Shown piece after piece: positions 8,478-42,803 of a DNA stretch of 64,000 nt. Source of the DNA: Candidatus Margulisiibacteriota bacterium. Lineage in GTDB: Bacteria > Desulfobacterota > Binatia > HRBIN30. The notes beneath the pieces are model-generated. The model saw only the letters and a list, made by a program, of their open reading frames with translations. It ran no database searches and was not told where the DNA came from. Where the stretch lies: positions 334-64,333 of the forward strand of contig DATKMS010000036.1 of NCBI GenBank assembly GCA_035541735.1. Direction: 5' to 3'. Made by a program: the position numbers and the translations under genes. Within the stretch, counting starts at the first letter, position 1, and each line of letters opens with the position of its first letter.

Positions 8478-9015
8478 CCTTCCTGCTCGCGTTCCCGGCG
8501 GCGCTTTGGCGGGCGCCTGAAAGAAATTGCTCAATGAAAGGGATCGGCCGATGAGCTCCCCGCTGCCCACGATACGCGACGATGTTGAGCGCCGCGATCC
8601 CGGCTTCTTCCGCCAACTCCTCCCGATCCTGTGGTTGCTCGCGAGCTTCTGGTACCGGGCGGAGGTGCGGAGGCGGTCATGACAACGTTGGAAGACAGCG
8701 CCTTGGACCACGAGTCGATCCGGCGGCCGGGGTTGGGACTCCTCCTACTCGAGGGTCGCGCCGTCCTGGAATTGGCGGCACTGCAGGTAACAACCTGTGC
8801 GGACCGCGCTCTGCACGTTGCGGGTGGATGGCGAGTGGTCTTCGCCACCCTTGCGGGACGGTGCAGCATGGCCTGGCCTGGCTAGCACAGTCGCATTGCT
8901 GCCCCAGGACGAGACGAACGCGTCGCCCACCGCGTCAGGGGTGGGGCATCGGAGAGCAGCGCCTGTCCAAAGGTGTGCTATTCAGCAGCCCGTTGAAAAA
9001 CTGGTCGCCAGCGTC

Positions 9016-9035
9016 ACCCCCGCGAAAGCGGGGGT
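9016..9035. repeat. REP-like GC-rich hairpin
   Basis: acccccgc-gaaa-gcgggggt, an 8-bp stem with a GAAA loop. It translates to VTPAKAGVQ / TPAFAGVT, which I recognise from memory as typical spurious-ORF peptides over REP-type repeats. Confidence 0.5.
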
Positions 9036-9217
9036 CCAGAATGCGGCGGTGTCGTGCGTGCATGCCGAGGGGCGCGCCCTCATCGCTTGTGCTATGACTG
9101 ACCACGAGCGCAGTCGCGTTCGAGCGGCCTGAAGCGCTCGCCCGCGGTGTGAACTAGACGGTTCGACGAACCTTCCTACGGCTCGGTGCGAGGCATTCCC
9201 CGAGCAGAAAGGCATTA

Positions 9218-12200
9218 TTGAAGCATTCAATCCTTCACGTCCTCCAAGGTCTGTCGACCGCCTCCCCGCGCGAAGCCGAAGAGCCGATCCGCAGCGAATT
9301 GTTCAGCGTCGAGCGCCTGGAGCAACATGCCGAGAGTCTGGCGGCCGCCCAGCACGTTACACCGAAGCCCGGGCGCGGCCGACCGCTGGCGACTCGCCTC
9401 CGGGACAACGCCCGGGTGCTGCTCGCCGCGTACCGCACCATCGGCCAGGCCATCCGTGAAGAACGCGCCATTACCCCGGCGGCCGAGTGGCTTCTCGACA
9501 ACTTTCACATTGCAGAGGAACAGATTCGCGAGATCCGCGACGATCTCCCGCGCAGCTTCTATCGCCAGCTGCCCAAGCTCGCCGAAGGGCCCCTCGCCGG
9601 CTATCCGCGCGTGTTCGGGATCGCCTGGGCCTTCGTGGCGCATACCGACAGTCTCTTCGATCCCCAGACGCTGACCCGCTTCGTGCGCGCCTACCAGCGT
9701 GTGCAACCGCTGACGATCGGCGAGCTCTGGGCAGTGGCAATCACGCTGCGCATCGTGCTCGTCGAAAATTTGCGGCGCGCCGCCGAGCAGATCGAGAGCG
9801 GCCGAGCGGCACGCCAGCAGGCCGACGCCCTGGCCGACCGGCTACTGGGGGTCGGCAGCCGTCAGGCCGAGCCGGTTGAGACGGCCCTGCGACGCTTCGA
9901 GCAGACACCCCTGCCGACGGCCTTCGCGGTGCAGCTGGTCCAGCGGCTGCGCGATCAGGACCCGGCGGTGACGCCGGCGCTGCGCTGGCTGGACGAACGC
10001 CTGGCCGCTCAAGGAACGACCGCGGACGAGATCGTCCGCAAGGAGCATCAGCGACAGGGCGCGAGCAATGTGACGGTCCGCAACGTGATCACCAGCATGC
10101 GTCTCATGTCGGCCGTCGATTGGGCGGAGTTCTTCGAGAGCGTCAGTCTCGTCGATGCGGCGCTGCGCGCCGGCAGCGACTTCGCCGCCATGGACTTCCC
10201 GACGCGCGATCGCTATCGGCACGCCATCGAAGAGCTGGCGCGCGGCTCAGGACACACGGAGCTCGAGGTCGCGCAGCGCGCGCTGCGCGCCGCAGGCGAG
10301 CCACCGAACGGTGGCGACGCCACCACTCGCCGTGAGCAGGATCCCGGCTACTACCTCATCTCGAAAGGGCGTCGGGCCTTCGAGACGGCGCTCGGATTTC
10401 GCGTGCCGATGAAGGACTGGCTGGCACGCGCCAACGCCGCCGCGGGCATCCTGGGTTATGCAGCAGCGATTGCCGTCATCACCACCTTCATCCTGGCGCT
10501 GCCGTTGCTGGCCCTGGCGCAGTTCGGGGTCGACGGCCCGATTCTCTCTCTGCTCGCGCTGCTCGCTCTGGTCCCGGCGTCGGATGCGGCCGTGGCGCTG
10601 GTGAACCACAGCGTCACCAATCGGTTCGGCGCAACGGGCCTGCCCGGTCTGGAGCTCCGCGACGGGGTGCCGCCGAGCCTGCGCACGATGGTTGTCGTCC
10701 CTACACTGCTGACGACGCCCGCGGATGTCGACGAGCAGATCGAGCGTCTCGAGGTTCGTCATCTGGCCAGCGCGGAGGGCGACATCCGCTTCGCGCTCCT
10801 CTCCGATTGGACGGACTCCGCCACAGAGACTTCACCGGGTGACGACGAGCTGCTTGCCGCGGCCGCCGCCGGCATCGCACGCTTGAATCGGCGCCACGGA
10901 CCGGCGCCGGATGGCGACCGCTTCCTCCTGCTGCATCGCCGACGGGTCTGGAACGCAGGGGAAGGAAAGTGGATCGGGTGGGAACGCAAGCGCGGCAAGC
11001 TGCACGAGCTGAACCGATTGCTACGCGGTGCGACCGACACGACCTTCCTCGCAGTCGGCGGCCACCCGCCCAGCGTCCCGCCAGGCGTCCGCTACGTGAT
11101 CACCCTCGACGCCGATACGCGACTCCCGAGGGGAGCCGCGAGGCGATTGGTCGGCAAGATGGCGCACCCGCTCAACCGTCCGCACCTCGATCCTCGCACC
11201 GGCCGTGTCGTCGAGGGGTACGCGGTGCTGCAGCCGCGCGTCACGCCGGCGTTGCCCACCGGCCGCGAGGGATCGCTGTTCCAACGCGTCTTCTCAGGCC
11301 CGTGCGGCATTGATCCCTACGCCTTCGCCGTTTCCGACGTGTACCAGGACCTTCTGGGCGAAGGTTCCTACACCGGGAAGGGCATCTACGACGTCGACGT
11401 CTTCGAGGCCGCCCTCGAGGGGCGAGTTCCCGAGAGCACACTGCTGAGTCACGACTTGCTGGAGGGCATCTTCGCGCGCGCCGGACTGGTCTCCGACATC
11501 GAGGTGGTCGAGGAGTTTCCATCACGGTACGACGTTGCGGCGGCGCGCCAGCATCGCTGGGCGCGCGGCGACTGGCAATTGCTTCCATGGATTCTCGGCC
11601 GTGGGCGCGACGCGAACGCTGACCCGACAAGAAAAGCGATTCCATTGATCGGCCGCTGGAAGATGATGGACAACCTGCGCCGCACGTTGTCCGCACCGGC
11701 CGCCTTCCTCGCACTCGTGGCAGGATGGATGCTGCCTCGTGCTGCGGCTGCGTTCTGGACCGGGTTCGTCCTGTCGATCATCGCGCTGCCTGCCCTGCTG
11801 CCGTTCGTGGCTGGGATCGTGCCGCGACGGCTCGGAATCTCGAAGCGCAGCCACTTGCGCGGGGTCGGTGTGGATCTGGCGCTCGCCCTGTCACAGATCG
11901 CCATCGTGGTGACGCTGCTCGCGCATCAGGCGTGGCTGATGACGGACGCCATCGCCCGCACGCTCGTCCGTCTGTTCGTGACCCGCCGCCACATGCTGGA
12001 GTGGGTCACCGCGGCGCAGGCGAAGTTCAGTCTCCCCCTCGACGTCCGCGGTTTCTACCAGCGGATGGCCGGCGGTGTCGTGCTCGCCGCGGCGACCGCG
12101 GTCATCGTGGGATGTGCGGGGCACGGCTCCTGGCCGGTTGTGCTTCCGTTCGTGACTTTGTGGATGCTAGCGCCGGTGGTCGCGCAGTGGGCCAGTCGTC

Positions 12201-32151: not shown

Positions 32152-34533
32152 ATGGCGCGACGGCTAGCAGGGATTACTCTCCGACTGTTTCCGATCTTGC
32201 TCTACGTGGCGTCAACAGCGGGCTGTGGGGGCGACGCCGCCTCGAACGTGTCGGTTCCCAAGGCTCAACCCTCTCCCGGACCTGCCGTCAACGGTACCGT
32301 GTCTTTGCCCAACGGCACTTTGGCAATGCGGGAGCGATCCGTGTTGCGGCGCTTCGCCGCGCTGGTGGTCGAGGAGGCCGAGGCGTTGGTCGCGACCAAC
32401 GTGAAGCCAGTGCCGCGCAACGTCCCCGTGCTCCTGACGTTGCAATACCCCAACGGTTCCTCCCAAACATATGATACGTTTTACACCAACGACCAGGGTG
32501 GCTACCTCCTCAATCTCCCAGCGGGAACCAGTGAGGACACGTGCCGTTTCATCGTGTCCGTCGGCAGTGGCTCCACGCTGACGCGCGCCTTTGTCTTCAG
32601 CACCGTCAAGCCGGTCAACATCGACTACATCAGCGAGACGGCGGTGACGCTCATCTTGGACCAGGTGCATCAAGGCGCCGACCTGTGCGAGTTCTCGGTC
32701 CGAGAAATCGAACAACTCGTCAACATGATCCGTGATCTGCCAGGCATCGTGACCGGCCCGGACATCTTCCAAACCAATCGCAACGCTCTGGTCGCTGCCT
32801 CGAGCAACCCTGACATCCAAGCCTTCGTGCGCGCCGCCGGCGGAGTGGCCACGCCAGTGCCCACGATTACACCGTTGCCGCCGACGGAGACGCCGACCGA
32901 AGGCACGCCGAGTGTCACGCCTACGGTGACCGTCACGAAAACGCGCGTTCCGACCAACACGCCGGTCAACACCGCAACCTTCACGGCGACGCGCACCAAC
33001 ACGCCGATCCCAACGCAAACCCCGACGCGCAGCCTCACGCCGACAGGGACCAAGCCGCCGCCGACCGCGACCGTGACCAACACCGCGACGCCGACGCGGA
33101 CCAATACCGCGACGCCAATCCCGACGACGACGGCGACGCCCACACGGACGAATACCGTGCCGCCGCCTCCGACGTCGACTCAGTCCCCTACGCCGACGGG
33201 CACCCTTGCACCGACGGCCACGTCAACCGCGACGCTGACGCCGACACAGGGCGGGCCGGTGCCGCACATTACCATCGGCGACGCCAGCGGGCCGGCGGGC
33301 AGTCAAGTGGTGGTGCCGATCTCGTTGGAGAAGAATGGGGTGACGGCGGCCAGCATCGCGCCGCTGATCATCGACATCGACACGGGCGTGTTGACGTTCG
33401 TGAGTTGCGCGAAGACGGCGGCGGTGACCAGCGGGCAGACGGTGGCGACCTCGATGCCGATGCCGGGACAGATCACCATCGTGCTGGCGGGGCTGGATCT
33501 GACGGTGCTGCCGGACGGGGAGATCATCGACTGTACGTTCACCATCAACGCGGCCGCAACGGGCAGTACGGCGGTGACCTTCGAGTCAGCGGCGGTGGGC
33601 GACGATCAGTTCAACAGCTTCGACGCGACCGGCACGAGCGGGACGGTGACCGTGGGGGTCGTGAACCCGCCGACGGCGACGCCAACGCCGACGCAGGGCG
33701 GGGCGGTGCCGGACATTACCATCGGCGATGCGAGTGGGCCGGCGGGTAGTCAGGTGGTGGTGCCGATCTCGCTGGAGAAGAATGGGGTGCGGGCGGCCAG
33801 CATCGCGCCGCTGATCATCGACATCGACACGGGCGTGTTGACGTTCGTGAGTTGCGCGAAGACGGCGGCGGTGACCAGCGGGCAGACGGTGGCGACCTCG
33901 ATGCCGACGCCGGGACAGATCACCATCGTGCTGGCGGGGCTGGATCTGACGGTGCTGCCGGACGGGGAGATCATCGACTGTACGTTCACCATCAACGCGG
34001 CCGCGACGGGCAGCACGGCGGTGACCTTCGAGTCGGCGGCCGTGGGTGACGACCAGTTCAACAGCTTCGATGCGAGCGGGACGAGCGGGACGGTGACCGT
34101 GGGCACCGCGAATCCGACGGTGCCGGACGTCACCATCGGCGACGCCAGCGGGCCGGCGGGCAGTCAGGTGGTGGTGCCGATCTCGCTGGAGAAGAATGGG
34201 GTGCGGGCGGCCAGCATCGCGCCGCTGGTGCTCGACATCGACACGGGCGTGTTGACGTTCGTGAGCTGCGCCAAGACGGCGGCGGTGACCAGCGGGCAGA
34301 CGGTGGCGACGTCGATGCCGATGCCGGGACAGATCACCATCGTGCTGGCGGGACTCGATCTGACGGTGCTGCCGGATGGAAACATCATCGACTGCACGTT
34401 CACCATCAACGCGGCCGCGACGGGCAGCACGGCGGTGACCTTCGAGTCGGCAGCGGTGGGTGACGATCAGTTCAACAGCTTCGACGCGAGCGGCACGAGC
34501 GGCACGGTGACGGTGGGGACGGGCGGTGCTTGA
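32152..34533 (+). CDS. lipoprotein scaffoldin-like protein: N-terminal domain, Thr/Pro linker, three tandem cohesin-like modules
   Basis: GAGAGGAG precedes ATG 32152. Lipobox LLYVASTAGC. A ~200-aa N-terminal region includes a prealbumin-like stretch (VPVLLTLQYPNGSSQTYDTFYTNDQGGYLLNLPAG), followed by a ~130-aa TP-rich linker. Three ~140-aa modules have cohesin-like pattern ITIGDASGPAGSQVVVPISLEKNG...IIDIDTGVLTFVSC...GQITIVLAG...PDGEIIDCTFTINAAATGSTAVTFES...GTSGTVTVG. Confidence 0.7.
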   Translation: MARRLAGITLRLFPILLYVASTAGCGGDAASNVSVPKAQPSPGPAVNGTVSLPNGTLAMRERSVLRRFAALVVEEAEALVATNVKPVPRNVPVLLTLQYPNGSSQTYDTFYTNDQGGYLLNLPAGTSEDTCRFIVSVGSGSTLTRAFVFSTVKPVNIDYISETAVTLILDQVHQGADLCEFSVREIEQLVNMIRDLPGIVTGPDIFQTNRNALVAASSNPDIQAFVRAAGGVATPVPTITPLPPTETPTEGTPSVTPTVTVTKTRVPTNTPVNTATFTATRTNTPIPTQTPTRSLTPTGTKPPPTATVTNTATPTRTNTATPIPTTTATPTRTNTVPPPPTSTQSPTPTGTLAPTATSTATLTPTQGGPVPHITIGDASGPAGSQVVVPISLEKNGVTAASIAPLIIDIDTGVLTFVSCAKTAAVTSGQTVATSMPMPGQITIVLAGLDLTVLPDGEIIDCTFTINAAATGSTAVTFESAAVGDDQFNSFDATGTSGTVTVGVVNPPTATPTPTQGGAVPDITIGDASGPAGSQVVVPISLEKNGVRAASIAPLIIDIDTGVLTFVSCAKTAAVTSGQTVATSMPTPGQITIVLAGLDLTVLPDGEIIDCTFTINAAATGSTAVTFESAAVGDDQFNSFDASGTSGTVTVGTANPTVPDVTIGDASGPAGSQVVVPISLEKNGVRAASIAPLVLDIDTGVLTFVSCAKTAAVTSGQTVATSMPMPGQITIVLAGLDLTVLPDGNIIDCTFTINAAATGSTAVTFESAAVGDDQFNSFDASGTSGTVTVGTGGA
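33244..34530 (+). repeat. three near-identical intragenic tandem repeats (cohesin-like modules)
   Basis: The ATCGGCGA landmark recurs at 33274, 33721 and 34135 (periods 447 and 414 nt). The copies differ by only a handful of substitutions and by the length of the inter-module linker. Confidence 0.9.
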
Positions 34534-34660: not shown

Positions 34661-35206
34661 ATGAAGGATCGTCTCTATATCGCCATTGGCGCTGCTGCGG
34701 TAATCGTGGTGGCGACGCTCATCTGGTTGAGTAACCGCCACGACGTGCAACATGAAGTGCAGCGAGATGAGGCCGCTACTGCACCGGACAATCCGGAAGC
34801 ACGCGTGTTTGCGTTGCAGGCGGAGTCCACAGCCGACAAGAAGGTGCGGGTGACCATGCGCTCCTTGCCGACGTCGGGGCCAGTGGTGACCATCGTCACG
34901 CAGGTCGATTACGACACTGGCCGCCTTAAGATGAACACCTGTACGATCAGCCCCGACATCGGCGAAGGTACAGCCAGCGCCAAGGTCTTGCACCTGGCAG
35001 AGCCTCAACCGGGATTGGTGCGGGCGGTGGTGGTCGGGAAGCTCGAGGAGTTGCCGGCAGCGGCGAACGTCCTCGCTTGCGACTTTGCGGTGCAGCCCGG
35101 CGCACCAGCGGGGCCGACTGTTGTGCGCGTCCACGGACAGGTTGCCGACACAACATTTGAAGACCGGCCGTTCGCAGTCGAGAAGACGATTGTCATCAAG
35201 AACTAG
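34661..35206 (+). CDS. membrane-anchored single cohesin-like protein
   Basis: Start taken at ATG 34661 (MKDRLYIAIGAAAVIVVATLIWL, an N-terminal TM anchor). The C-terminal ~130 aa have a beta-rich cohesin-like pattern (KVRVTMRSLPTSGPVVTIVTQVDYDTGRLKMNTCTISP...VLACDFAVQPGAPAGPTVVRVHGQVADTTFEDRPFAVEKTIVI). Confidence 0.5.
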   Translation: MKDRLYIAIGAAAVIVVATLIWLSNRHDVQHEVQRDEAATAPDNPEARVFALQAESTADKKVRVTMRSLPTSGPVVTIVTQVDYDTGRLKMNTCTISPDIGEGTASAKVLHLAEPQPGLVRAVVVGKLEELPAAANVLACDFAVQPGAPAGPTVVRVHGQVADTTFEDRPFAVEKTIVIKN

Positions 35207-35228: not shown

Positions 35229-37205
35229 ATGTCCAAGGTCATCGGCAGGTGTGTTCGGGGTACGGTTGTAGCGTTTGGCATCGGGCTTCTTCTCTCTGCG
35301 CGCACCAACGCGCAGTGTCTGGGAGACTGCAACGGCGACGGGACGGTCGGGCCGGGCGAACTGAACAAGGTCATCGCCATCATCTTGAACTGCAGTTCAG
35401 CGGCGGCCGGTTGTGGGGCCGTCCCCGGCGGTTGTACTGCTGCCGATAAGAACGGCGATCACACGATCCAGCCCGGCGAGCTGAACAACATCATTTTCAA
35501 CATCCTGAACTTCCCCCCCAAAGGCTGCCCGGCGACATCGCCGACTCCGACAAAGACCCTAGGCGTGGTGCCTACCAACACCATAGCGCCGACGAACACG
35601 CCGACCCGTGTGCCGTCGCAGACCCCGACCCCGACAACGGGCGCCGCTGTGTGCGGCAACGGCATCACGGAATCCAACGAGGACTGTGACGACGGCGGGT
35701 TCTGCATCGGTGGCGACAACGCGGGCATCAAGTGCAACTCGGAGGCGCAGTGCCAGGGCCAGGGTGTTTGCACCGAAGGCGTGAAGATCGGCACGGCGTG
35801 CAATGGCGACGCCGACTGTCCGGATGCCAAGTGCATCCACTGCAAGCCGTGCGGCGGCGACGGGTGCGCCGCAAACTGTACCTTCGAGCAGGACATCGCA
35901 TACGATCTGGTTCCGGGTGCCGTGAAGGTCTGCAAAGGAGGTGCGAACGACGGCAAAGGGTGCAACGTGGTTGCGGACTGTCCGCCATCCTCACCGCCGC
36001 AAACCCCGGGTCCGTCGTGTACGACCTACAAACAATGCCTGGGTGGCCCGAACGACAACAAACTATGCAGCGGCGGAGTCGACTGCCCAGGAGGGATCTG
36101 CAACCAGGCGGTCAAGCCCGGCAGCAGCGGTGCCTTCGTGCATGATGGGCTCCTGCAGCTCGCGCTGCCGATATCGGGCACCCAGACGCTGACCATCGGC
36201 AAAAAACGCAACAATGAGATTCCGGGCGTCATCAAGGCCACCAGCGTCAAGCTGCCCGCCATCGGGGTCGGCCCGGTCGCCTGTGCCTGCGTGCGCGCCA
36301 TCGCCACAAAGACCTGCGGCGGGACGGTGTTCGACTTCGATGGATCAGGTTCGACGGATTGCACCGACGGCTTTACAGCCGGCGCCAGCGTGTGCACCGA
36401 CGCCGGCAAGAAACCGTGTGCCTTCGTACACGGCCCCGGAAACGCGTCGTCCGGCCTGATCGGCTGCAACGGCCTGGAGGGGGTGAATCTTTCCTTCACG
36501 CAAGACGAGGCCTACGCCCCGTGTGGTACCCAGGTTGCGGGTGGTGTGTGCCCCACGCCCTATCCACCGGCGCCGACACCGCCGGCCGGCTCGGGACTCC
36601 CGGTGATCACACTGAGCGGTTCAGGTGGCCCAGGCTCGTCGATCGTCCTGAACAGTTCCGCGATCGGCACCGCTGTGGGCGCCTGTAACCAGGCCGGCTC
36701 ATGCCACGCTGGGTCGAATGCCGGGAAAGCTTGCACCAAAAATGCGGACTGTCCAGGCAGCACCTGCGACGGCGTGAAGGTGCTCGAGGTCTCGGGACCC
36801 GACCTGACCTTCTGCAGTAACGTTGGGGTATCGTGCGATAACGGGCCGCCCTGCGATGACGACCCACAGTCGAGTCGGGGGGTGCCGCAGACGCTGCCGC
36901 AGGTGACCGGTACGGCGACCGGGCTGATCACCAACACGTATGGAGCCGCCTCCTCGGCACGGGTGTGCAAGAACAAGACAACCCAGACGTGCCGGAGCGA
37001 TGCGGACTGCGGGGCGGATGGGCCGTGCCTGTTCAACATCGGGCCCTTCTCGTACACCGGCAGTCCGTACGATTGTGCGAAGTTGGAGGCGAGTCCGCCG
37101 ACGGCCGAGGGTGGCAACGTGGTCGGTGCGTTCACCGGGCTCAATCAACCCAGCACCGGCGATATCGTGGTGCGTAACACGTTCATCATCGGGCCGCGGA
37201 AGTAG
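35229..37205 (+). CDS. secreted dockerin-bearing cysteine-rich protein (N-terminal double EF-hand dockerin, TP linker, myxococcal-type Cys-rich repeat region)
   Basis: Signal peptide MSKVIGRCVRGTVVAFGIGLLLSARTNA. The dockerin has two calcium-loop/helix units: GDCNGDGTVGPGELNKVIAIILN and ADKNGDHTIQPGELNNIIFNILN. CGNGITESNEDCDDGG resembles the Myxococcus cysteine-rich repeat. Six C-x2-3-(D/A/V)(A/V)(D/Q)-C motifs are present. Confidence 0.75.
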   Translation: MSKVIGRCVRGTVVAFGIGLLLSARTNAQCLGDCNGDGTVGPGELNKVIAIILNCSSAAAGCGAVPGGCTAADKNGDHTIQPGELNNIIFNILNFPPKGCPATSPTPTKTLGVVPTNTIAPTNTPTRVPSQTPTPTTGAAVCGNGITESNEDCDDGGFCIGGDNAGIKCNSEAQCQGQGVCTEGVKIGTACNGDADCPDAKCIHCKPCGGDGCAANCTFEQDIAYDLVPGAVKVCKGGANDGKGCNVVADCPPSSPPQTPGPSCTTYKQCLGGPNDNKLCSGGVDCPGGICNQAVKPGSSGAFVHDGLLQLALPISGTQTLTIGKKRNNEIPGVIKATSVKLPAIGVGPVACACVRAIATKTCGGTVFDFDGSGSTDCTDGFTAGASVCTDAGKKPCAFVHGPGNASSGLIGCNGLEGVNLSFTQDEAYAPCGTQVAGGVCPTPYPPAPTPPAGSGLPVITLSGSGGPGSSIVLNSSAIGTAVGACNQAGSCHAGSNAGKACTKNADCPGSTCDGVKVLEVSGPDLTFCSNVGVSCDNGPPCDDDPQSSRGVPQTLPQVTGTATGLITNTYGAASSARVCKNKTTQTCRSDADCGADGPCLFNIGPFSYTGSPYDCAKLEASPPTAEGGNVVGAFTGLNQPSTGDIVVRNTFIIGPRK

Positions 37206-37215
37206 AACTGGTCCA

Positions 37216-37248
37216 GTCCACAGGGGGGCACGGCGCCCCCCTGTGGAC
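37216..37248 (+). terminator. strong hairpin after the dockerin gene (no U-tract)
   Basis: gtccacaggggggc (37216-37229) pairs with gcccccctgtggac (37235-37248), 14 bp perfect with a 5-nt loop. It is followed by cacaaaaac rather than a T-run. A TTGACA box follows at 37264-37269. Confidence 0.45.
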
Positions 37249-37515
37249 CACAAAAACTGTATTGACAAAGCTAGGCGCCGCCAGTAGTCATAGAGAGGTC
37301 GTTCCGCAAACCAAGTCGATCCGACAAGGCGACCGGCGTGCAGGGGACAGCAGGTCCCTCCGGAGGATAAGCAACGATGAGAGGCGTAGTGTGCGACTCG
37401 CGGGTGTGCCGGCGCACCAGGGTTCGCGGTCGTGAACCCCCGGGCCTTGGCCAGCAAACGAGGGGGTTTACGGAGCAAGAGAGTGTTCTGCCAAACAAAG
37501 ATGAGAGGAGGAGTT

Positions 37516-38916
37516 ATGTACAGTAACAAGATCGCAGGCGTGGTCGCCGGCGCGGTGGCTCTGCTTCTGCTGTCGGCACCGTCCTACGCCGATCTGACCA
37601 AGTGCGCCACGCTGATCGACGGCGAAAATGCCAAGATGCAGGCGGCGATGATCAAGCATTTCCAGAAGTGCATCGATGGGTACCACAAGGATCTCGCCAA
37701 GGTTCCAAAGACGGGGCCATTCACTGCGGCAGCAAAGGTGTGTGATAAAGAACTCGGTAAGGGGATCGGCTCCGGCGGCGACATCGACAAGGAAGTAACG
37801 ACCAAGCTTATCGCGGGCTTCACCAAGAACACCTGCACGGAATCGGACTTGCTGGCGCTCGGTCACCTGTCGCACAAGCTCTACACTGACAACTGGGCGC
37901 GGCTTCAGGGGGTCTCGGCGTTCCATTCGGCCTATGAGCAGGCACTGGCCGGCAGCCGCGATTTCATCCAAGGCTTGATCGATATGGGGAAGAGCGCAAG
38001 TCCAGGCTGCCCCAATTGCGTCAAGATCAACCATCCGCTGTGCAACGAGATGAGCAGCGTGCTGGCCAGCAGCTCGCAGGCTGTCGTGTTGGTGTCTGTT
38101 CTGAACCTGACCGTACCCCTGAGCGGGACAACTGTCTTGAAGATCTGCGACAACACCGTAAGTGGGTTGGTTTCCGGGGGCATCTTGCCGAACATTCCAG
38201 CGAGTACATTCTATGTGCTGGGCGGACCCGGCAAGCTGTTGGATCCGGCGCCGGTCGGGAATGGGGGGACGGCTCTCGCCACTGCCTGCACGAGGACGAT
38301 TGCAGCCGAAGGGATCATCCAGTGCGGCTCTGCGCAGCGCATCTCCTACGTGACGTGCCAGGATCATACGCCGTCAACCACCAACGCGGACGGGGCATCA
38401 GCCTCAGGGGGCTGCACCGGCCAGGATAGCTGTGCGAGGACCAAGAAGAACAGCGAACAGTCGGTCGTCGATCCTAAGGACGGCCCGCCGATCGCGGCGA
38501 GTGACACGCTGATTGGCGGCGCCTGCATCAAGACTGTGTCGACTGCTGGCGTCGCGGGCGACGGCTTCGTCAATCTGACCTCGCAAATCGGTCTCCACCG
38601 CCTCGTGACGAATGACAACTGCCAGAACCCGGCGACCTTGGACGACGCCGGGTTGCCAGCCACCACGTCGCTCACAACCGGAACAGCAGCCGCCAAGGTG
38701 TTGAACCAGGACTCGGAGGGCGGAACGCCGTCTACCAATGAGCTCGACTCCGACGTGGTCACCGGAAGCATTTTCAACTGCGCGACCCTGAACGCAGGTC
38801 AAACAAAGGGGACGCACCTGGTCGGAGCCTTCCCGGCGATCAACACGCTGCAGCTCTCAGGGGGAGGGGACTTCCTCGACAGCGTGACCACGTTCGAACT
38901 GGACGTTGCTCCGTAA
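37516..38916 (+). CDS. secreted hypothetical protein (helical Cys-paired N-domain; C-terminal module shared with the dockerin proteins)
   Basis: GAGGAGGAG precedes ATG 37516. Signal peptide MYSNKIAGVVAGAVALLLLSAPSYA. C-terminal FNCATLNAGQTKGTHLVGAFPAINTL parallels YDCAKLEASPPTAEGGNVVGAFTGLNQ of the preceding protein. It is visibly less GC-rich than neighbours. Confidence 0.65.
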   Translation: MYSNKIAGVVAGAVALLLLSAPSYADLTKCATLIDGENAKMQAAMIKHFQKCIDGYHKDLAKVPKTGPFTAAAKVCDKELGKGIGSGGDIDKEVTTKLIAGFTKNTCTESDLLALGHLSHKLYTDNWARLQGVSAFHSAYEQALAGSRDFIQGLIDMGKSASPGCPNCVKINHPLCNEMSSVLASSSQAVVLVSVLNLTVPLSGTTVLKICDNTVSGLVSGGILPNIPASTFYVLGGPGKLLDPAPVGNGGTALATACTRTIAAEGIIQCGSAQRISYVTCQDHTPSTTNADGASASGGCTGQDSCARTKKNSEQSVVDPKDGPPIAASDTLIGGACIKTVSTAGVAGDGFVNLTSQIGLHRLVTNDNCQNPATLDDAGLPATTSLTTGTAAAKVLNQDSEGGTPSTNELDSDVVTGSIFNCATLNAGQTKGTHLVGAFPAINTLQLSGGGDFLDSVTTFELDVAP

Positions 38917-38938
38917 GAACCTAGTCAACGCCTGAGGA

Positions 38939-38976
38939 AGGGGACGGAGGCACACTCTCCGTCCCCTTTCTTTTTG
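38939..38976 (+). terminator. rho-independent terminator
   Basis: aggggacggag (38939-38949) pairs with ctccgtcccct (38957-38967), followed by ttctttttg. Confidence 0.8.
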
Positions 38977-38999
38977 CCGGCAATGGAGGACCCTTATCA

Positions 39000-39521
39000 A
39001 TGCGACCCTTGATTGCGCTCGTATTGCTTCTCATGCTCCTCGGCGAAGGTGCACAGGCCGCCTTCCCGAACGAACCGGAGGGCTTCGGACCGTTGCGTTT
39101 CGGTGCCTCGACGGCGGCGCTTGAAAAGGCGTTCCCCAAGGCGAAGCGCCGGGGCCAGGAGGAGTTCCTGACGATCTACGATCTGGAAGGCCAATCCGTG
39201 CTCGGCTTGAAGCCGTGTACCGTGGAGTTGCGCTTCGTCGACGACAAGTTCTATCAGGTGCTGTTCAGTTGCGAACCGAAGGACAAGGTGGCGCGGGCGT
39301 TGGAGAAGCGCTTCGGCCCCGCGGTTCAACACAAGCCAGACGAGACCGTGTGGCTGAGTGAGACGCACTGGGTGTCGTTCAGCCCGCAGGCCAAGTCGTT
39401 CTCATACACCGACCGCTCGCTGGGCAGCCTCGCGCAGAAGAAGCTGCTCGGCTACGTCCTGCGTCAGCGAGCGCAAGCGCAGGCGACCGCTGCCGTGCCG
39501 ACGCCCGGGCCGACGCCGTAG
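39000..39521 (+). CDS. small secreted hypothetical protein
   Basis: GGAGGA at 38985-38990 precedes ATG 39000. Signal peptide MRPLIALVLLLMLLGEGAQA. No family recognised. Confidence 0.6.
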   Translation: MRPLIALVLLLMLLGEGAQAAFPNEPEGFGPLRFGASTAALEKAFPKAKRRGQEEFLTIYDLEGQSVLGLKPCTVELRFVDDKFYQVLFSCEPKDKVARALEKRFGPAVQHKPDETVWLSETHWVSFSPQAKSFSYTDRSLGSLAQKKLLGYVLRQRAQAQATAAVPTPGPTP

Positions 39522-39576
39522 TCAAAACCACGAACGCCGACGAATTGAAGGGCGTGAACCGGACCTTCGTTGCGGA

Positions 39577-39604
39577 GTAGGGGCACAGCGCGCTGTGCCC
39601 CTAC
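39577..39604. repeat. perfect 28-bp palindrome (REP-like / terminator)
   Basis: gtaggggcacagcg directly abuts cgctgtgcccctac with no loop. It lies downstream of the 39000-39521 gene. Confidence 0.7.
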
Positions 39605-39780
39605 TGTATTGCACGGAAAATTTCTCGTGCGGCTTTGCAGCCGTCTGCGGCCTACGGCCGTGGATTCTCGTTGACAATCAAGCGGCGCGCGCGGTATCAA
39701 ACCAAGAATTGCATCGAATCGGTTTGCGAAAAGATTTCGCTGGTGTGCGGCGGTGCTGCATTGCCACTGAAAGGGTCATC

Positions 39781-41007
39781 ATGCTTCTGAACCTGCACGG
39801 GTCTGTAAGAATGGTCGCAGTCACTACGTGCGTGGCGGCGCTGCTGTTCACAGCAGCGGCTGCAGCCAACGCCCAGTGCTTGGGAGACTGCAACGGTGAC
39901 GGGACGGTCGGGCCGGGGGAGCTGAACAAGGTCATCGCCATCATCTTGAACTGCAGCTCAGCGGCAGCCGGGTGCGGAGCTGTCCCCGGCGGTTGCACCG
40001 CTGCCGACAAGAACGGCGATCACACGATCCAGCCCGGCGAGCTGAACAACATCATATTCGACATCCTGAACTTCCCACCCAAGGGCTGCCCCGCGGCGTC
40101 ACCGACACCGACGCGGACGCAAGGCATCCAGGCGACCAGCACGCCGACCAACACCTTCACCCTGGCGCCCTCGGCGACGCCGACGCCGAGCCCGACCACC
40201 GCCCTCGGCCCGCCGCTCGGCATGCGCGTGTTCTCGCTGGGCTCAAAATCAGCCTTTACCAGTTCACTGCTGCCCGGCGGCAGCCTCGGCACGCCGATGG
40301 GGACGCTCATGCTTGACGCCGGCGGCAAGGACGGCAGCGGTCGTGCGACGGTGACCCTGGCCAACCCCGGCACGCTCATCCGCACGGACCTCTCGGCGGG
40401 GAACTTGACTCTGTGCACCAAGCTCGACTCGTGCACCGGCACACTCTACTGTGACGGCGGAACCGACGTCGACGTGCTCAACTCCCTCGATAGCCTCCGC
40501 GCGGACCTGACGTGCATGCGCGACGGCACGCACAGCTGCCCGGCGACCGCACCGACACCACCGGTGTGCTGCAGCAACGCCTGTGAAGGTGTCGGCGTCG
40601 GCAGCGGCAACAGCCCGCAGCAGACGAGCCCACCGCCGAACGTCACGCCCACCCCCAGCGGTGCGGGCGCGATGTTGCTGATCTGCCAGCAGCGCAGCGT
40701 GCCCGTGAGGCCCCAGTGCCAAGGTACGGGCTCGTGTTGTTCAACGGTCGATTTCTCGACCGCCGCGCCGGCGACGCAGTACTACACGACCGGGATCGAC
40801 ACGGCCCAAGTCCTCAACCACTGCGCCGGCTCCGGAGCGAGTCCCAGCAAGGTACCCAAGATCGCCAGGAAGGGTACGAACTTCGACTGCGCCAATTGGA
40901 CGACAGAGAACGGCGTTGGTGTCTTGGGCTTCACCATCCCAGCAGAAGAAGGGGATGCGAACATCACCGGCGACGGGGCACAAGCCGGGTTGTGGAGCGA
41001 CCAGTAG
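39781..41007 (+). CDS. secreted dockerin-bearing protein 2 (same dockerin cassette, different cargo)
   Basis: Start taken at ATG 39781. Signal peptide ...VAVTTCVAALLFTAAAAANA. The dockerin QCLGDCNGDGTVGPGELNKVIAIILNCSSAAAGCGAVPGGCTAADKNGDHTIQPGELNNIIFDILNFPPKGCP is identical to that of 35229-37205 except one residue. A TP linker precedes an unrelated ~300-aa Cys-containing cargo. Confidence 0.75.
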   Translation: MLLNLHGSVRMVAVTTCVAALLFTAAAAANAQCLGDCNGDGTVGPGELNKVIAIILNCSSAAAGCGAVPGGCTAADKNGDHTIQPGELNNIIFDILNFPPKGCPAASPTPTRTQGIQATSTPTNTFTLAPSATPTPSPTTALGPPLGMRVFSLGSKSAFTSSLLPGGSLGTPMGTLMLDAGGKDGSGRATVTLANPGTLIRTDLSAGNLTLCTKLDSCTGTLYCDGGTDVDVLNSLDSLRADLTCMRDGTHSCPATAPTPPVCCSNACEGVGVGSGNSPQQTSPPPNVTPTPSGAGAMLLICQQRSVPVRPQCQGTGSCCSTVDFSTAAPATQYYTTGIDTAQVLNHCAGSGASPSKVPKIARKGTNFDCANWTTENGVGVLGFTIPAEEGDANITGDGAQAGLWSDQ

Positions 41008-41414
41008 GCGACGCTCGTACGTGCACCACCCCGCGCTCAAGGGACAGAGTGCTAAGATTGCGCGCCCTTCGGCGTCGCTCAGGACTCTCAGGACAGGGCT
41101 TGGCGACGGCGCCTGAAAAGTTGGCGCTTCCTGCCCATGAGCCTGCGGCTGGCGGTCGCCCAGGGCGTTGCCCTGGGCTGACGTCTTGCCGCCCTTTCAG
41201 GGCTGAGACCCAAAGGATTAGCAGCCTGCAGATCAACAGCCCCGATAGGGGCGGCCATTCGATAGCCCGGGGCATCGCCCCGGGCGGTTGCGCCGAATGC
41301 GACAACGGCTCATGGCCCCCCCAAGCCGCTGCCCCGGCGATTGGTCCTCCCAGCGTGAGCGGTTTGCTGGTTCGCTGGCTGCGGGACGGCTTGCGTTGTG
41401 CACCCCACGCCCGC

Positions 41415-42566
41415 ATGGAGGCTGCAATAGCTCCGCCTCGTCGGACGCAGCGTCTGGCTGCCTGGGCTCTTGCCTTGAGTACGGTCGCGCTGCTGCCGGC
41501 ATGTGCGCTATGGCGTGGGCACGCCGCGCCAGCCGATCCGGCCAGCGCCACCGTCTCACGCCTGCTGCACTCCGCAGCCGCGCAAGATGACCATGACGCG
41601 GCGACCGAGGCGATCGCCGCGCTGGGACCCGCGGCGCTGCCCGCAGTGTCTACCGGGCTGGCGGATCCGGAGGAGAGTGTGCGGCTGGTTGCCGTCGAGG
41701 CGCTCGGCAAGATGCGTGGGCCCGCGGCGGTGGACACGCTCCTGGTGGCGCTCAAAGACACCAGCTCTGACGTGCGTCTGAGCGCCGTGGAGCAGCTCGG
41801 CGGGCTCGGCGATCGGCGCGCCGTGCAACCGCTGCTCGAGCAGTTCGCCAAGGACGACAACCCGCAGGTACGCTACGAATGCCTCACCAGCCTGGGGTTG
41901 ATCGGCGATCCGTCGACGGTCGACTTTCTGGTCAAGGGCACCCGTGACGCCGATCCGTTCGTCCGGCTGTGGGCGATGGATGCCCTCTGTCAGATGAGCG
42001 ATCCGCATGCGCAAGATCTTGCCCTCGCCTTCCTGCGCGACCCCAACCCTGCGGTGCGCGATCAGATCATTCGCGCCTGCGCCGACGCCTTCAACACGCC
42101 GAACGGGCGGCGCACGTTGATCGAGCTGGCGTTGAACCCTCCCGACTTTTCGAACGCGGTGTGGGCGCGGCGCTACCTCATGAGTTTCGTCGAGCGCGGC
42201 CCCGACGGCGCCCAGCTCGCTGCGCAGATCCGTGCGGCGGCGCTGCCGGCGCTGCGCGGCCCGCACGCCCTGGGCGCTGCCATGCTCCTCGGCGACCTCG
42301 GCGACCGCGCCGCCACCGATCGGCTCATTGCCGCGCTGCGCGACCCGGACTTCCAGGTACGCCTCCACGCCGCTCTCCTGCTGGCGAAGACGCGTGACCG
42401 CCGCGCAGTGCCCGCTCTGATCGTGGTGCTCAACGACCAGGTCGGGATCGTCGCGGCCTCGGCGTACAACTCGCTGCAGTGGTTCGCTGACGACGGCGAC
42501 CAGCGCGCGCAGGAGGCGGTGCGGAATTACAAGGGCACGAAGTTCGACACGCGCTTGCCGCGCTGA
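41415..42566 (+). CDS. HEAT-repeat (PBS-lyase-like) lipoprotein
   Basis: Start taken at ATG 41415. Lipobox ALLPAC. Repeated units carry D-x-x-x-VR and A-x-x-AL-G patterns (ESVRLVAVEALGKMRGPAAVDTLLVALKDTSSDVRLSAVEQLGGLGDRRAVQPL...). Confidence 0.7.
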   Translation: MEAAIAPPRRTQRLAAWALALSTVALLPACALWRGHAAPADPASATVSRLLHSAAAQDDHDAATEAIAALGPAALPAVSTGLADPEESVRLVAVEALGKMRGPAAVDTLLVALKDTSSDVRLSAVEQLGGLGDRRAVQPLLEQFAKDDNPQVRYECLTSLGLIGDPSTVDFLVKGTRDADPFVRLWAMDALCQMSDPHAQDLALAFLRDPNPAVRDQIIRACADAFNTPNGRRTLIELALNPPDFSNAVWARRYLMSFVERGPDGAQLAAQIRAAALPALRGPHALGAAMLLGDLGDRAATDRLIAALRDPDFQVRLHAALLLAKTRDRRAVPALIVVLNDQVGIVAASAYNSLQWFADDGDQRAQEAVRNYKGTKFDTRLPR

Positions 42567-42779: not shown

Positions 42780-42803
42780 TAGAATCAGGGTTCTGGTGTG
42801 CTA

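What the first reader, a model, noticed from the sequence alone, without database searches (positions are those of the whole stretch)
35313..40091. A 218-nt dockerin cassette shared by two otherwise unrelated genes, differing almost only at synonymous sites
35313-35530 and 39874-40091 align without indels. I count 18 nucleotide differences by eye, and only one changes an amino acid (FNILN vs FDILN). Upstream signal peptides and downstream cargo regions are unrelated apart from TP-rich linkers. Synonymous-only divergence argues for strong purifying selection on the whole cassette rather than a very recent copy. That fits two ligands that must fit one receptor. The cassette is unusual for a dockerin in two ways. 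It is N-terminal, and it contains five cysteines (QC-LGD-C ... N-C-SSAAAG-C-GAVPGG-C) that could staple the two EF-hand units. Gene 1 also has a C7 run (35513-35519) just after the cassette, which is interrupted in gene 2.
Basis: seen in the sequence. Interest (0 to 1): 0.6.

Follow-up and report, generated by a model that had tools for sequence, protein, structure and literature searches.

The report
Transplanted dockerin plug beside cohesin scaffold
Two unrelated secreted proteins of an uncultured Binatia bacterium carry the same small calcium-binding "plug" (a disulfide-braced dockerin), which was copied from one gene onto the other and then kept almost unchanged, most likely because both must fit the three-socket cohesin lipoprotein encoded just upstream.

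Summary
35313-35530 and 39874-40091 align without gaps, with 18 differences, and only one changes an amino acid. Codon-aligned over 75 codons there are 19 synonymous changes and 1 replacement (dS 0.48, dN 0.006, omega 0.012, P about 1e-12).

The module is a dockerin by architecture and predicted fold, although it scores below Pfam's threshold. It has six conserved cysteines, not five.

Its likely receptors lie directly upstream:
- a lipoprotein with three Pfam cohesin domains (32152-34533);
- a membrane-anchored single-cohesin protein (34661-35206).

The order scaffoldin, mono-cohesin, dockerin gene recurs in related Candidatus Binatia genomes.

The new result is that the cassette was transplanted. 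The positional orthologue of gene 2 in a relative is 88% identical in cargo but only 47% in the cassette. Gene 2's cassette and TP linker are of the gene 1 type. So a module swap was followed by strong purifying selection.

Binding is untested, and read-level checks were not possible. The wider four-cysteine family has about 90 copies in this genome and sits at either end of proteins. This scan has reported the Binatia cohesin-dockerin system before on other DNA. I found no paper on it.

The parts
32152..34533 (+). Scaffoldin-like lipoprotein (793 aa). It has a lipobox (STAG|C), an N-terminal domain of about 180 aa, a TP-rich linker of about 140 aa, and three tandem cohesin domains.
   Evidence: Pfam PF00963 Cohesin scores 105.3 bits against a cut-off of 24.1, in 3 stretches. 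The own-genome scan agrees.
33268..33657 (+). Cohesin module 1
   Evidence: The three modules differ pairwise at 19-28 of 390 nt, mostly at synonymous sites (dS 0.17-0.25, omega 0.07-0.13).
33715..34104 (+). Cohesin module 2
34129..34518 (+). Cohesin module 3
34661..35206 (+). Single-cohesin protein (181 aa) with one N-terminal membrane helix. It ends 22 nt before gene 1.
   Evidence: It has no Pfam hit on its own. It scores 69 bits against a cohesin HMM built from Binatia scaffoldins. Pairwise BLASTP to cohesin 2 gives E 3e-5. It hits multi-cohesin scaffoldins of relatives at E 5e-8 to 2e-6. It is conserved directly upstream of every gene 1 orthologue seen.
35229..37205 (+). Gene 1 (658 aa, 'A-type' cargo): signal peptide, dockerin cassette, TP linker, then a cysteine-rich cargo.
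   Evidence: Cargo orthologues occupy the syntenic position in relatives.
35229..35312 (+). Signal peptide of gene 1 (28 aa, ...TNA|QC)
   Evidence: Read from the sequence. It is unrelated to the signal peptide of gene 2.
35313..35531 (+). Dockerin cassette of gene 1 (73 aa, six Cys, two 12-residue Ca loops each followed by a helix).
   Evidence: AlphaFold2 gives pLDDT 88.8. The top Foldseek hits are dockerins.
35532..35651 (+). TP-rich linker of gene 1
37513..38916 (+). Secreted protein without a dockerin, lying between the two dockerin genes. It has no family match. It is syntenic in L091 and L094.
39781..41007 (+). Gene 2 (408 aa, 'B-type' cargo), a mosaic: B-type 5' end, A-type cassette and linker, B-type cargo.
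39781..39873 (+). Signal peptide of gene 2 (31 aa). It starts MLLN..G..M.V, like the B-type orthologues.
39874..40092 (+). Dockerin cassette of gene 2. It differs from the gene 1 cassette by one amino acid.
40093..40206 (+). TP-rich linker of gene 2. It is homologous to the linkers of A-type genes and so is part of the transplanted module.
   Evidence: Nucleotide identity to A-type linkers is 67-76%. One search shows the alignment.
40207..41004 (+). B cargo domain (266 aa), confidently predicted as all-beta, with no counterpart among solved structures.
   Evidence: AlphaFold2 gives pLDDT 94.1 and pTM 0.90. Foldseek against the PDB finds nothing above probability 0.10. There are 56 homologues in public data.

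Best explanation
The cassette is a disulfide-braced dockerin. It has two calcium loops, each followed by a helix, and six cysteines, and it sits at the mature N-terminus of two secreted proteins.

Proposed mechanism:
1. After Sec export and signal-peptide cleavage the module folds, binds calcium and is oxidised.
2. It then plugs into a cohesin. The candidates are the three near-identical cohesins of the upstream lipoprotein scaffoldin, the neighbouring membrane-anchored single cohesin, or both.
3. The cargo domains hang from the cell envelope on flexible TP-rich linkers.

Proposed history:
1. Gene 2 did not inherit this plug.
2. In the lineage of this genome, its own B-type dockerin and linker were replaced by recombination with the cassette and linker of a gene 1-type (A-type) gene. 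The simplest donor is gene 1 itself, 4.5 kb upstream.
3. The TP-linker repeats and the signal-peptidase site served as junctions.
4. This re-addressed cargo B to the same cohesins as cargo A.
5. Since then the two copies have drifted apart at synonymous sites (dS about 0.5), while selection allowed a single amino-acid change.

Shown: the substitution pattern, the mosaic structure of gene 2, the dockerin-like fold, the adjacent cohesins and the conserved gene order.
Inferred: the binding itself, which cohesin is the partner, the disulfide pattern, and the cellular location.
For: Selection
- There are 19 synonymous changes and 1 replacement; omega is 0.012 and P is 1e-12.
- Between gene 1 and its orthologue on L091, the cassette has omega 0.009 and the rest of the gene 0.19 (Fisher P 5e-12).

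Dockerin nature
- The sequence is two internally similar units, DCNGDGTVGPGELNKVIAIILN and DKNGDHTIQPGELNNIIFNILN (14 of 22 identical).
- The AlphaFold2 model has pLDDT 88.8. Its two helices are 14-27 and 54-66, and there is no helix before loop 1.
- The best Foldseek PDB hits are almost all dockerins: 6kgc_B/6kgf_B, 4fl4, 2y3n, 2ozn, 2ccl and 2vn5. TM is 0.5-0.69, rmsd 2.5-3.5 A, and probability up to 0.91. Calmodulin hits have TM about 0.3.

Receptor
- Three Pfam cohesins lie in the upstream lipoprotein (105 bits), followed by a mono-cohesin.
- The order scaffoldin (2-5 cohesins), mono-cohesin, N-terminal six-Cys dockerin gene is complete in G003, G008, G022, G023 and G024.
- It is partial at contig ends in G011, G013, G015 and L091-L093.
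- All eight relatives that have the mono-cohesin also have the subtype cassette.

Rosetta-stone fusions
- In other metagenomes the B cargo is fused, through a TP linker, directly to the scaffoldin's own N-terminal domain. P0032 matches P0003 residues 50-228 at E 6e-29. P0039 is a lipoprotein form of the same design.
- In P0040 the B cargo follows a bare lipoprotein signal plus a TP linker.

Transplant
- The positional orthologue of gene 2 is P0015 on L094. It has the same neighbours: a P0004-like gene, a HEAT gene, CoA-transferase and DUF2889.
- It shares 229 of 261 cargo residues with gene 2 (dN 0.08). It shares only 34 of 72 cassette residues (dN 0.50) and 18 of 32 linker residues (Fisher P 2e-21).
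- Nucleotide identity of gene 2 to gene 1 rises to 0.86-1.0 over 39885-40085. Identity to L094 is 0.8-0.9 from 40200 onward and peaks at 0.88 around the start codon.
- AU tests reject a single origin for the cassettes on B cargo (p 1e-4) and on C cargo (p 2e-4).
Against: - No binding datum exists.
- The module misses the Pfam Dockerin_1 threshold (14.1 vs 22.9 bits). Its profile finds calmodulin EF-loops in the PDB by sequence.
- Foldseek E-values are not significant (0.16 or worse), because the domain is small.
- The mono-cohesin does not co-vary specifically with the cassette across G000 and L091-L093, so the partner is not resolved.
- G018 has an A-type gene with this cassette but no cohesin nearby.
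- The genome is a MAG (497 contigs, 7% contamination). I also found no independent assembly of the junction.
- The cassette dS (0.48, standard error about 0.12) equals the cargo dS to L094 (0.45). The donor may therefore have been an already diverged allele rather than gene 1 itself.
Confidence: 0.72

Rival explanations
1. Generic module, not a docking plug. On this view the Cys-bracketed double calcium loop is a stabilising or sorting domain of secreted Binatia proteins. Its conservation reflects folding and calcium binding, and the neighbouring cohesins are coincidental.
For: - About 90 modules of the wider family sit on unrelated proteins of this genome: 50 at the C-terminus, 28 at the N-terminus and 12 internal.
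- Pfam dockerin and EF-hand scores are below threshold.
- A profile search of the PDB by sequence returns calmodulin.
- Pfam detects only 5 cohesin domains in the genome.
Against: - The fold matches dockerins, not EF-hand pairs.
- The subtype is found next to cohesin genes in at least six genera.
- A lineage-specific HMM finds about 17 cohesin-like domains in 13 ORFs of this genome. Several share a protein with dockerin-like modules.
- The same cargo is elsewhere fused covalently to the scaffoldin's anchor domain.
- A pure folding constraint would not explain why the plug on cargo B was replaced by the plug of its neighbour.
Confidence: 0.13
2. Vertical inheritance without a transplant. On this view both genes always carried this cassette, and it is merely the slowest-evolving part of each.
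For: - The cassette is highly constrained within the G000 and L091 group (omega about 0.01).
- A synonymous divergence of 0.48 shows that the copies are not young.
Against: - The positional orthologue of gene 2 has 88% identical cargo but a 47% identical cassette of another sub-lineage, one with a DKQC insert. The break is sharp at GPPLG.
- Other close B orthologues (P0024, P0033, P0014) share that B-type cassette.
- Gene 2's linker matches A-type linkers.
- The AU test rejects monophyly of the B-borne cassettes.
Confidence: 0.05
3. Assembly chimera. On this view gene 2's mosaic arose when the metagenome assembler joined a B-type gene to an A-type cassette from a co-occurring strain.
For: - The source is a MAG with 497 contigs and 7% contamination.
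- The two cassettes share exact repeats of up to 47 nt.
- No independent contig with the junction was found.
- Reads could not be examined.
Against: - Gene 2's cassette differs from gene 1's along its whole length, at 20 sites on both sides of the long exact repeats. It matches no other known copy exactly.
- The 3' junction, from A-type linker to B cargo, has no shared sequence that could bridge an assembly graph.
- The frame is intact, and all differences but one are synonymous. That is the signature of a functioning gene and not of a random join.
Confidence: 0.05

Closest known systems
Type I dockerin-cohesin pairs of clostridial and ruminococcal cellulosomes (Pfam PF00404 and PF00963; solved complexes such as 6KGC/6KGF, 2CCL, 2VN5, 4FL4)
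   Same: - A module of about 70 aa with two duplicated units of calcium loop plus helix, and a matching predicted fold.
- Strong internal two-fold sequence symmetry, which in cellulosomes underlies the dual binding mode.
- A scaffoldin with tandem cohesins.
- Many dockerin-bearing proteins per genome.
- Contact between the N- and C-termini of the module. The 'intramolecular clasp' was described as a general dockerin feature in PMC3821032.
   Different: - The host is an uncultured high-GC Candidatus Binatia, a Gram-negative-type bacterium.
- The scaffoldin is a lipoprotein.
- The cargo is not a carbohydrate-active enzyme.
- Position 12 of both calcium loops is Glu, as in canonical EF-hands. From my own knowledge it is usually Asp in classical dockerins.
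- Four family-wide cysteines, plus two more in this subtype, replace the non-covalent clasp.
- The module is N-terminal in about a third of cases.
- It scores below the Pfam gathering threshold.
Non-cellulosomal cohesin-dockerin systems. Examples are the survey across the three domains of life cited, the Clostridium perfringens NagH/NagJ complex (2OZN), and the ANME archaea (PMC9012536 appears in the searches).
   Same: Cohesin-dockerin pairs are used to assemble proteins unrelated to cellulose degradation. 2ozn_B is among the fold hits.
   Different: My literature searches found no paper that mentions Binatia or Binatota together with dockerin or cohesin. The disulfide bracing, the lipoprotein scaffoldin and the conserved mono-cohesin partner gene are specific to this system.
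Calmodulin-type EF-hand pair (PF00036 / PF13499)
   Same: Both loops fit the 12-residue EF-hand consensus D-x-N-x-D-x-x-[IV]-x-x-x-E. A profile of the family finds calmodulin in the PDB at E 1e-8 to 1e-10.
   Different: There is no entering helix before either loop. Structural superposition on calmodulin is poor, with TM about 0.3 and rmsd about 12 A. Pfam EF-hand scores are below threshold.
Species-specific co-evolution and module shuffling of cellulosomal dockerins
   Same: Cassettes cluster by lineage rather than by the cargo they are attached to. This is expected when all plugs of a genome must fit that genome's sockets.
   Different: Here one discrete exchange can be reconstructed. Both breakpoints, the donor type and a positional orthologue that lacks the swap are known.

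Membership tests
Dockerin (type I, Pfam PF00404) | Two tandem segments of about 22 residues, each a 12-residue calcium-binding loop followed by a helix, with no entering helix | tested here: met
   The sequence repeats are shown. The AlphaFold2 model has helices 14-27 and 54-66 only, each preceded by a loop.
Dockerin (type I, Pfam PF00404) | Score above Pfam's gathering threshold | tested here: not met
   The score is 14.1 bits against a cut-off of 22.9. Only a few of the Cys-bracketed modules in the genome reach the threshold.
Dockerin (type I, Pfam PF00404) | Three-dimensional similarity to solved dockerins | tested here: met
   Eleven of the twelve best PDB matches are dockerins, with TM 0.5-0.69 and probability up to 0.91. 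The exception, 2ozn_B, is a chain of the C. perfringens NagJ-NagH cohesin-dockerin complex. Caveat: E-values are 0.16 or worse for this 75-residue model, and the model is a prediction.
Dockerin (type I, Pfam PF00404) | Calcium-dependent binding to a cohesin | not testable with these tools
   This needs a binding assay or a multimer prediction.
Dockerin (type I, Pfam PF00404) | Cohesin-bearing partner encoded in the genome | tested here: met
   Three Pfam cohesins lie 0.7 kb upstream. The gene order is conserved in relatives.
Cohesin (Pfam PF00963), for the proposed receptor | Score above the gathering threshold; tandem modules on an anchored protein | tested here: met
   The score is 105.3 bits against 24.1, in three stretches. 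A lipobox is present at the N-terminus.
Cellulosome (the system) | Dockerins carried by carbohydrate-active enzymes | tested here: not met
   Neither cargo has any Pfam or NCBIfam family or any PDB relative by sequence. The B cargo fold has no PDB match.
Canonical EF-hand pair (calmodulin-like) | Helix-loop-helix with an entering helix; Pfam threshold | tested here: not met
   Only four residues precede loop 1, and no helix precedes loop 2. EF-hand_1 scores 20.2 bits against 25.4. Calmodulin superpositions have TM about 0.3.
Non-allelic gene conversion or module replacement | A mosaic gene with sharp breakpoints, a donor-type tract, and an orthologue that lacks the tract | tested here: met
   Against the positional orthologue, dN is 0.50 in the cassette and 0.08 in the cargo. 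The tract is 91% identical to gene 1.

The most novel reading that the evidence does not exclude
Binatia run a large cohesin-dockerin network unrelated to cellulose, in which disulfide-braced dockerin plugs act as exchangeable addresses. Recombination in the repetitive TP linkers moves plugs between cargo genes and so re-routes a cargo from one scaffold to another. The six-cysteine subtype would be a private address for the lipoprotein scaffoldin and mono-cohesin pair. The event reconstructed here, cargo B re-plugged with its neighbour's dockerin and then frozen by selection, would be a caught-in-the-act example of how such networks are rewired.
Probability: 0.4. Interest if true: 0.72.

Novelty: new variant of a known kind. 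Interest (0 to 1): 0.55.

Why it matters
Cohesin-dockerin pairs are the standard example of modular protein assembly and are widely used in synthetic biology. Almost everything known about them comes from Gram-positive cellulose degraders.

This locus shows the same plug-and-socket logic in a different setting:
- an uncultured, globally distributed Gram-negative-type lineage;
- a lipid-anchored scaffold;
- covalently braced plugs;
- cargo of unknown, non-carbohydrate function.

It also gives a rare, datable example of a plug moving from one cargo gene to another and then being held constant. That is direct evolutionary evidence that the plug's sequence, rather than its cargo, is what selection matches to a receptor.

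Disulfide-stapled dockerins and their cohesins could become orthogonal, robust parts for designer assemblies. The B cargo is a confident but uncharacterised fold, found with at least six alternative anchoring solutions, so it is an attractive target for structure and function work.

Tried and rejected
- Pfam and NCBIfam gave nothing for either cargo beyond sub-threshold EF-hand hits in the cassette. PDB sequence searches of both proteins gave no hits.
- Foldseek of the confident B-cargo model against the PDB found no meaningful match. Cargo function stays unknown.
- The search for related loci failed with the 11-sequence cassette alignment because no stretch was conserved enough. It worked with four close sequences.
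Cysteine presence and absence within this genome is uninformative, since 74 of 80 modules have all four. The pairings C2-C72, C6-C41 and C27-C34 are therefore only inferred. The basis is the joint insertion of C27 and C34. Further support comes from a few relatives that lack both C2 and C72 but keep C6 and C41 (the L071 and L069 rows).
- I looked for specific co-variation between the mono-cohesin and the cassette across G000 and L091-L093 and found none. The cohesin domain is similarly conserved in all four. Which cohesin is the partner stays open.
- The C7 run is the codons F-P-P, it is interrupted by synonymous changes in orthologues, and it is one of 218 such runs. I rejected it as a feature.
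- BLASTP shows no similarity among gene 1, gene 2, the 37513-38916 protein and the 42798-43637 ORF beyond the cassette and linker.
A junction-spanning pattern found nothing in metagenome contigs.
- Literature searches for Binatia with dockerin and for Binatota with cohesin found no papers. A search on dockerin with disulfide found nothing relevant to bacterial Cys-braced dockerins.
- Synonymous distances cannot identify the exact donor. Gene 2 against gene 1, L091 and L093 gives 0.48, 0.53 and 0.37, each with a standard error of about 0.12.

Full report
**Observation**

17 differences are synonymous. One changes AAC to GAC, giving FNILN versus FDILN.

They lie in two real open frames on the + strand. 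Gene 1 is 35229-37205 (658 aa) and gene 2 is 39781-41007 (408 aa). Each begins with a signal peptide that ends in NA|QC.

In codon register the shared block NAQ...KGCP is 75 codons long. It has 20 nucleotide differences, 19 synonymous and 1 non-synonymous. Nei-Gojobori gives dS 0.48 (standard error about 0.12), dN 0.006 and omega 0.012. An equal spread over site classes is rejected (Fisher P 1e-12, binomial P 2e-11). So the pattern is real and far beyond chance.

There are three corrections:
- The cassette holds six cysteines, not five. The last one, in KGCP, was missed.
- The C7 run lies inside the cassette, as the codons TTC CCC CCC. It is one of 218 such runs in the genome and is broken by synonymous changes in orthologues.
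- Similarity continues through the TP-rich linker. BLASTP aligns residues 29-141 with 32-142 at 83% identity.

**What the module is**

The sequence consists of two similar units, DCNGDGTVGPGELNKVIAIILN and DKNGDHTIQPGELNNIIFNILN, with 14 of 22 residues identical. Each unit is a canonical 12-residue calcium loop followed by a helix.

Pfam scores are below threshold: Dockerin_1 14.1 bits against 22.9, and EF-hand_1 20.2 against 25.4. A profile of the family finds calmodulin loops in the PDB by sequence.

An AlphaFold2 model built on 53 sequences is confident (pLDDT 88.8, pTM 0.77). It shows only two helices, 14-27 and 54-66, each preceded by a loop, with no entering helix. Its best PDB matches are almost all dockerins: C. 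acetobutylicum Doc0917, C. thermocellum type I and II, B. cellulosolvens, C. perfringens NagH and C. cellulolyticum. TM is 0.5-0.69 and probability reaches 0.91. Calmodulin superposes poorly, with TM about 0.3. The E-values are weak because the domain is small.

I therefore call it dockerin-like in architecture and fold, and outside the Pfam family as currently drawn.

**The wider family**

The genome is a 7.0 Mb, 65% GC MAG in 497 contigs. Titles of related records identify the lineage as Candidatus Binatia.

An HMM iterated on the genome's own six-frame ORFs finds 90 modules at 30 bits or more. Their consensus is CVGDCNGDGTVTVDELITLVNIALG...C.AGDANGDGTVTVDEIVAAVNNAL.GCP. Fifty are at the extreme C-terminus, 28 follow a signal peptide, and 12 are internal or unclear. 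N-terminal placement is therefore ordinary in this lineage.

Four cysteines are invariant family-wide (positions 2, 6, 41 and 72 of the cassette). 74 of 80 full-length copies have all four.

The cassette under study belongs to a subtype. It has an 11-residue insert carrying two more cysteines (C27 and C34) and a short FPPK insert. Only three proteins in this genome have this subtype: gene 1, gene 2 and one on contig C397.

I infer the pairs C2-C72, C6-C41 and C27-C34. A bond between the two termini would be a covalent version of the 'intramolecular clasp' described as a general dockerin feature in PMC3821032.

**The receptor**

A scan of the genome with Pfam Cohesin puts three of its five hits in the ORF directly upstream of gene 1. 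That protein, at 32152-34533, has four parts:
- a lipoprotein signal (STAG|C);
- an N-terminal domain of about 180 residues;
- a long TP linker;
- three cohesins, scoring 105 bits in total.

The three cohesins differ pairwise at 19-28 of 390 nucleotides, again mostly at synonymous sites (dS 0.17-0.25, omega 0.07-0.13).

Between the scaffoldin and gene 1 lies a 181-aa protein with one membrane helix and a diverged cohesin. The evidence for the cohesin is as follows:
- 69 bits to a lineage-specific cohesin HMM;
- pairwise E 3e-5 to cohesin 2;
- E 5e-8 to 2e-6 against scaffoldins of relatives.

It has no Pfam hit alone. It ends 22 nt before gene 1.

**Conservation of the locus**

Among 40 related genomes, the six-Cys cassette is found in many members of the same family at 40-67% identity. 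Cohesins occur in nearly all.

Fetching the neighbourhoods shows the same order: scaffoldin with 2-5 cohesins, then the mono-cohesin, then the gene with the N-terminal subtype dockerin.
- The order is complete in G003, G008, G022, G023 and G024.
- It is cut by contig ends in G011, G013 and G015.
- It also appears on three metagenomic contigs that carry close orthologues of gene 1.

Every one of the eight relatives with a mono-cohesin orthologue also has the subtype cassette. These genomes are kin, so this is a count and not a statistical test.

G018 is an exception. It has an A-type gene with no cohesin nearby.

**Cargo families and Rosetta-stone fusions**

The cargo regions fall into unrelated families. 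A is the gene 1 type, which is the syntenic gene in relatives. B is the gene 2 type. C is the C397 type.

The B cargo has 56 homologues in public data. Its model is very confident and all-beta (pLDDT 94.1, pTM 0.90), but it has no counterpart in the PDB.

Across those homologues the same cargo is attached in many ways:
- through six-Cys dockerins;
- through other dockerin variants;
- through a bare lipoprotein signal plus TP linker (P0040);
- in P0032 and P0039, covalently to a domain homologous to the scaffoldin's own N-terminal domain (P0003 residues 50-228, E 6e-29).

That fusion is what one expects if, in this genome, the cargo is joined to the same anchor non-covalently.

**The cassette was transplanted**

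P0015, on contig L094, is the positional orthologue of gene 2. It is flanked by the same P0004-like gene upstream. Downstream are the same HEAT-repeat, CoA-transferase and DUF2889 genes.

| Region of gene 2 vs L094 orthologue | Identical residues | dN | dS |
|---|---|---|---|
| Cargo | 229 of 261 | 0.08 | 0.45 |
| Cassette | 34 of 72 | 0.50 | not used |
| Linker | 18 of 32 | 0.47 | not used |

The break falls exactly at GPPLG. The contrast in replacements between cassette plus linker and cargo has Fisher P 2e-21.

Other close B orthologues (P0014, P0024, P0033) share the L094-type cassette, which carries a DKQC insert. That cassette is therefore ancestral for this B clade.

Gene 2's linker, SPTPTRTQGIQATSTPTNTFTLAPSATPTP, matches the linkers of A-type genes such as SPTATRTQGGAATNTPTRTFTVPPTPTPTP in L091. 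Nucleotide identity is 67-76%.

A sliding-window comparison shows the mosaic directly:
- Gene 2 resembles L094 upstream of and around the start codon (0.53-0.88, peaking at 39769-39794), and again from 40200 onward (0.8-0.9).
- Gene 2 resembles gene 1 at 0.86-1.0 over 39885-40085, and at 0.57-0.73 from there to 40199.

A tree of cassettes groups them by lineage rather than by cargo. AU tests reject a single clade for B-borne cassettes (p 1e-4) and for C-borne cassettes (p 2e-4). The groups were defined from cargo similarity alone. G014, G026 and G029 were left out as long branches.

**After the transplant**

The gene 1 cassette is also almost frozen relative to its orthologue on L091. There the cassette has dS 0.69, dN 0.006 and omega 0.009. 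The rest of that gene has dS 1.0, dN 0.195 and omega 0.19 (Fisher P 5e-12).

Against the more distant L092 and L093 the cassette shows 15-17 replacements. These are concentrated in the inter-repeat loop and the second calcium loop. Both helices stay invariant.

The synonymous distance between the two cassettes of this genome (0.48) is about the same as that between gene 2's cargo and its L094 orthologue (0.45). There are two readings. The swap may have happened soon after those lineages split. Alternatively, the donor may have been an already diverged A-type allele rather than gene 1 itself. I cannot tell these apart.

**Mechanism proposed**

Shown:
- two unrelated secreted cargos carry one plug;
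- the plug has a dockerin-like fold;
- a three-cohesin lipoprotein and a mono-cohesin are encoded next to it, in a conserved arrangement;
- one plug was acquired by module replacement;
- both copies are under very strong purifying selection.

Inferred:
- after export the module binds calcium and is oxidised to three disulfides;
- it docks on the scaffoldin cohesins, the mono-cohesin, or both;
- the TP linkers act as flexible tethers and, at the DNA level, as recombination substrates;
- the swap re-addressed cargo B to the same scaffold as cargo A;
- the near-identical two halves of the module allow a dual binding mode, as in cellulosomal dockerins.

**Rivals**

- A generic stabilising or sorting module without a partner (about 0.13) is weakened by the fold match, the conserved synteny and the fusion proteins.
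- Vertical inheritance without a swap (about 0.05) is contradicted by the positional orthologue.
- An assembly chimera (about 0.05) is unlikely. Gene 2's cassette differs from gene 1's along its whole length, and the 3' junction shares no sequence that could bridge an assembly graph.

**Comparison with the known, and novelty**

The system works like a cellulosomal cohesin-dockerin pair. It is not a cellulosome, because it carries no carbohydrate-active cargo. The plug also falls outside Pfam's dockerin model.

Non-cellulosomal cohesin-dockerin pairs are known in principle (papers). I found no paper linking Binatia to dockerins or cohesins.

This scan has already reported the Binatia Cys-braced dockerin and cohesin system on other DNA, in at least a dozen genomes. 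It also flagged this very locus. The system as such is therefore not new to the scan.

- the formal selection test;
- the definition of the six-cysteine subtype and its tie to the scaffoldin and mono-cohesin pair;
- the Rosetta-stone fusions;
- the reconstruction of a plug transplant with both breakpoints and an unswapped orthologue.

I rate it a new variant of a known kind, with interest 0.55.

Noticed in passing
window 40207-41004: The B cargo domain is predicted with very high confidence as an all-beta fold (pLDDT 94.1, pTM 0.90) but has no structural match in the PDB and no Pfam family. It has 56 homologues in public data and many invariant cysteines, including a CCSNACEG motif.
   Followed up: partly
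proteins P0014-P0068 (homologues of gene 2 cargo): One cargo family occurs with at least six different N-terminal anchoring solutions. These are the six-Cys dockerin, a 'LINEVV' four-Cys dockerin, a 'VQAC...C.NC' six-Cys dockerin, the general dockerin, a lipoprotein plus scaffoldin N-domain, and a lipoprotein plus linker. There are also PF24247-type domains and a tandem B-B protein (P0014).
   Followed up: partly
own genome contigs C190:783-1436, C449:500-883, C185, C23: Several proteins carry a cohesin-like domain together with one or two Cys-bracketed dockerin-like modules in the same chain. This architecture resembles an adaptor scaffoldin. One of them, on C190, also has long beta-propeller-type repeats.
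   Followed up: no
own genome (whole): The genome holds about 90 Cys-bracketed dockerin-like modules plus 23 matches to the canonical Pfam Dockerin_1 model. Against these there are about 17 cohesin-like domains in 13 ORFs. That is a large cohesin-dockerin network with no obvious link to polysaccharide degradation.
   Followed up: partly
own genome contig C397 (about 8400-9420, minus strand): Two adjacent paralogous genes share a C-terminal cargo (motif NDLDYALRVV) but carry different plugs. One has the six-Cys subtype and the other the general four-Cys type. This may be another case of plug exchange.
   Followed up: no
L038 (G008:C1, about 944700-945700): In this relative the region between the scaffoldin and the dockerin gene splits into several short overlapping ORFs with cohesin fragments. 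This suggests frameshifts or decay of the mono-cohesin or of a cohesin module.
   Followed up: no
window 37513-38916: A secreted 467-aa protein without a dockerin or any family match sits between the two dockerin genes. It is syntenic in L091 and L094, with 207 of 307 residues identical to the L094 copy.
   Followed up: partly
window 41400-42566 and L094:2672-3835: A HEAT-repeat protein with a lipoprotein-like N-terminus follows gene 2 in both genomes. Whether it belongs to the system is unknown.
   Followed up: no
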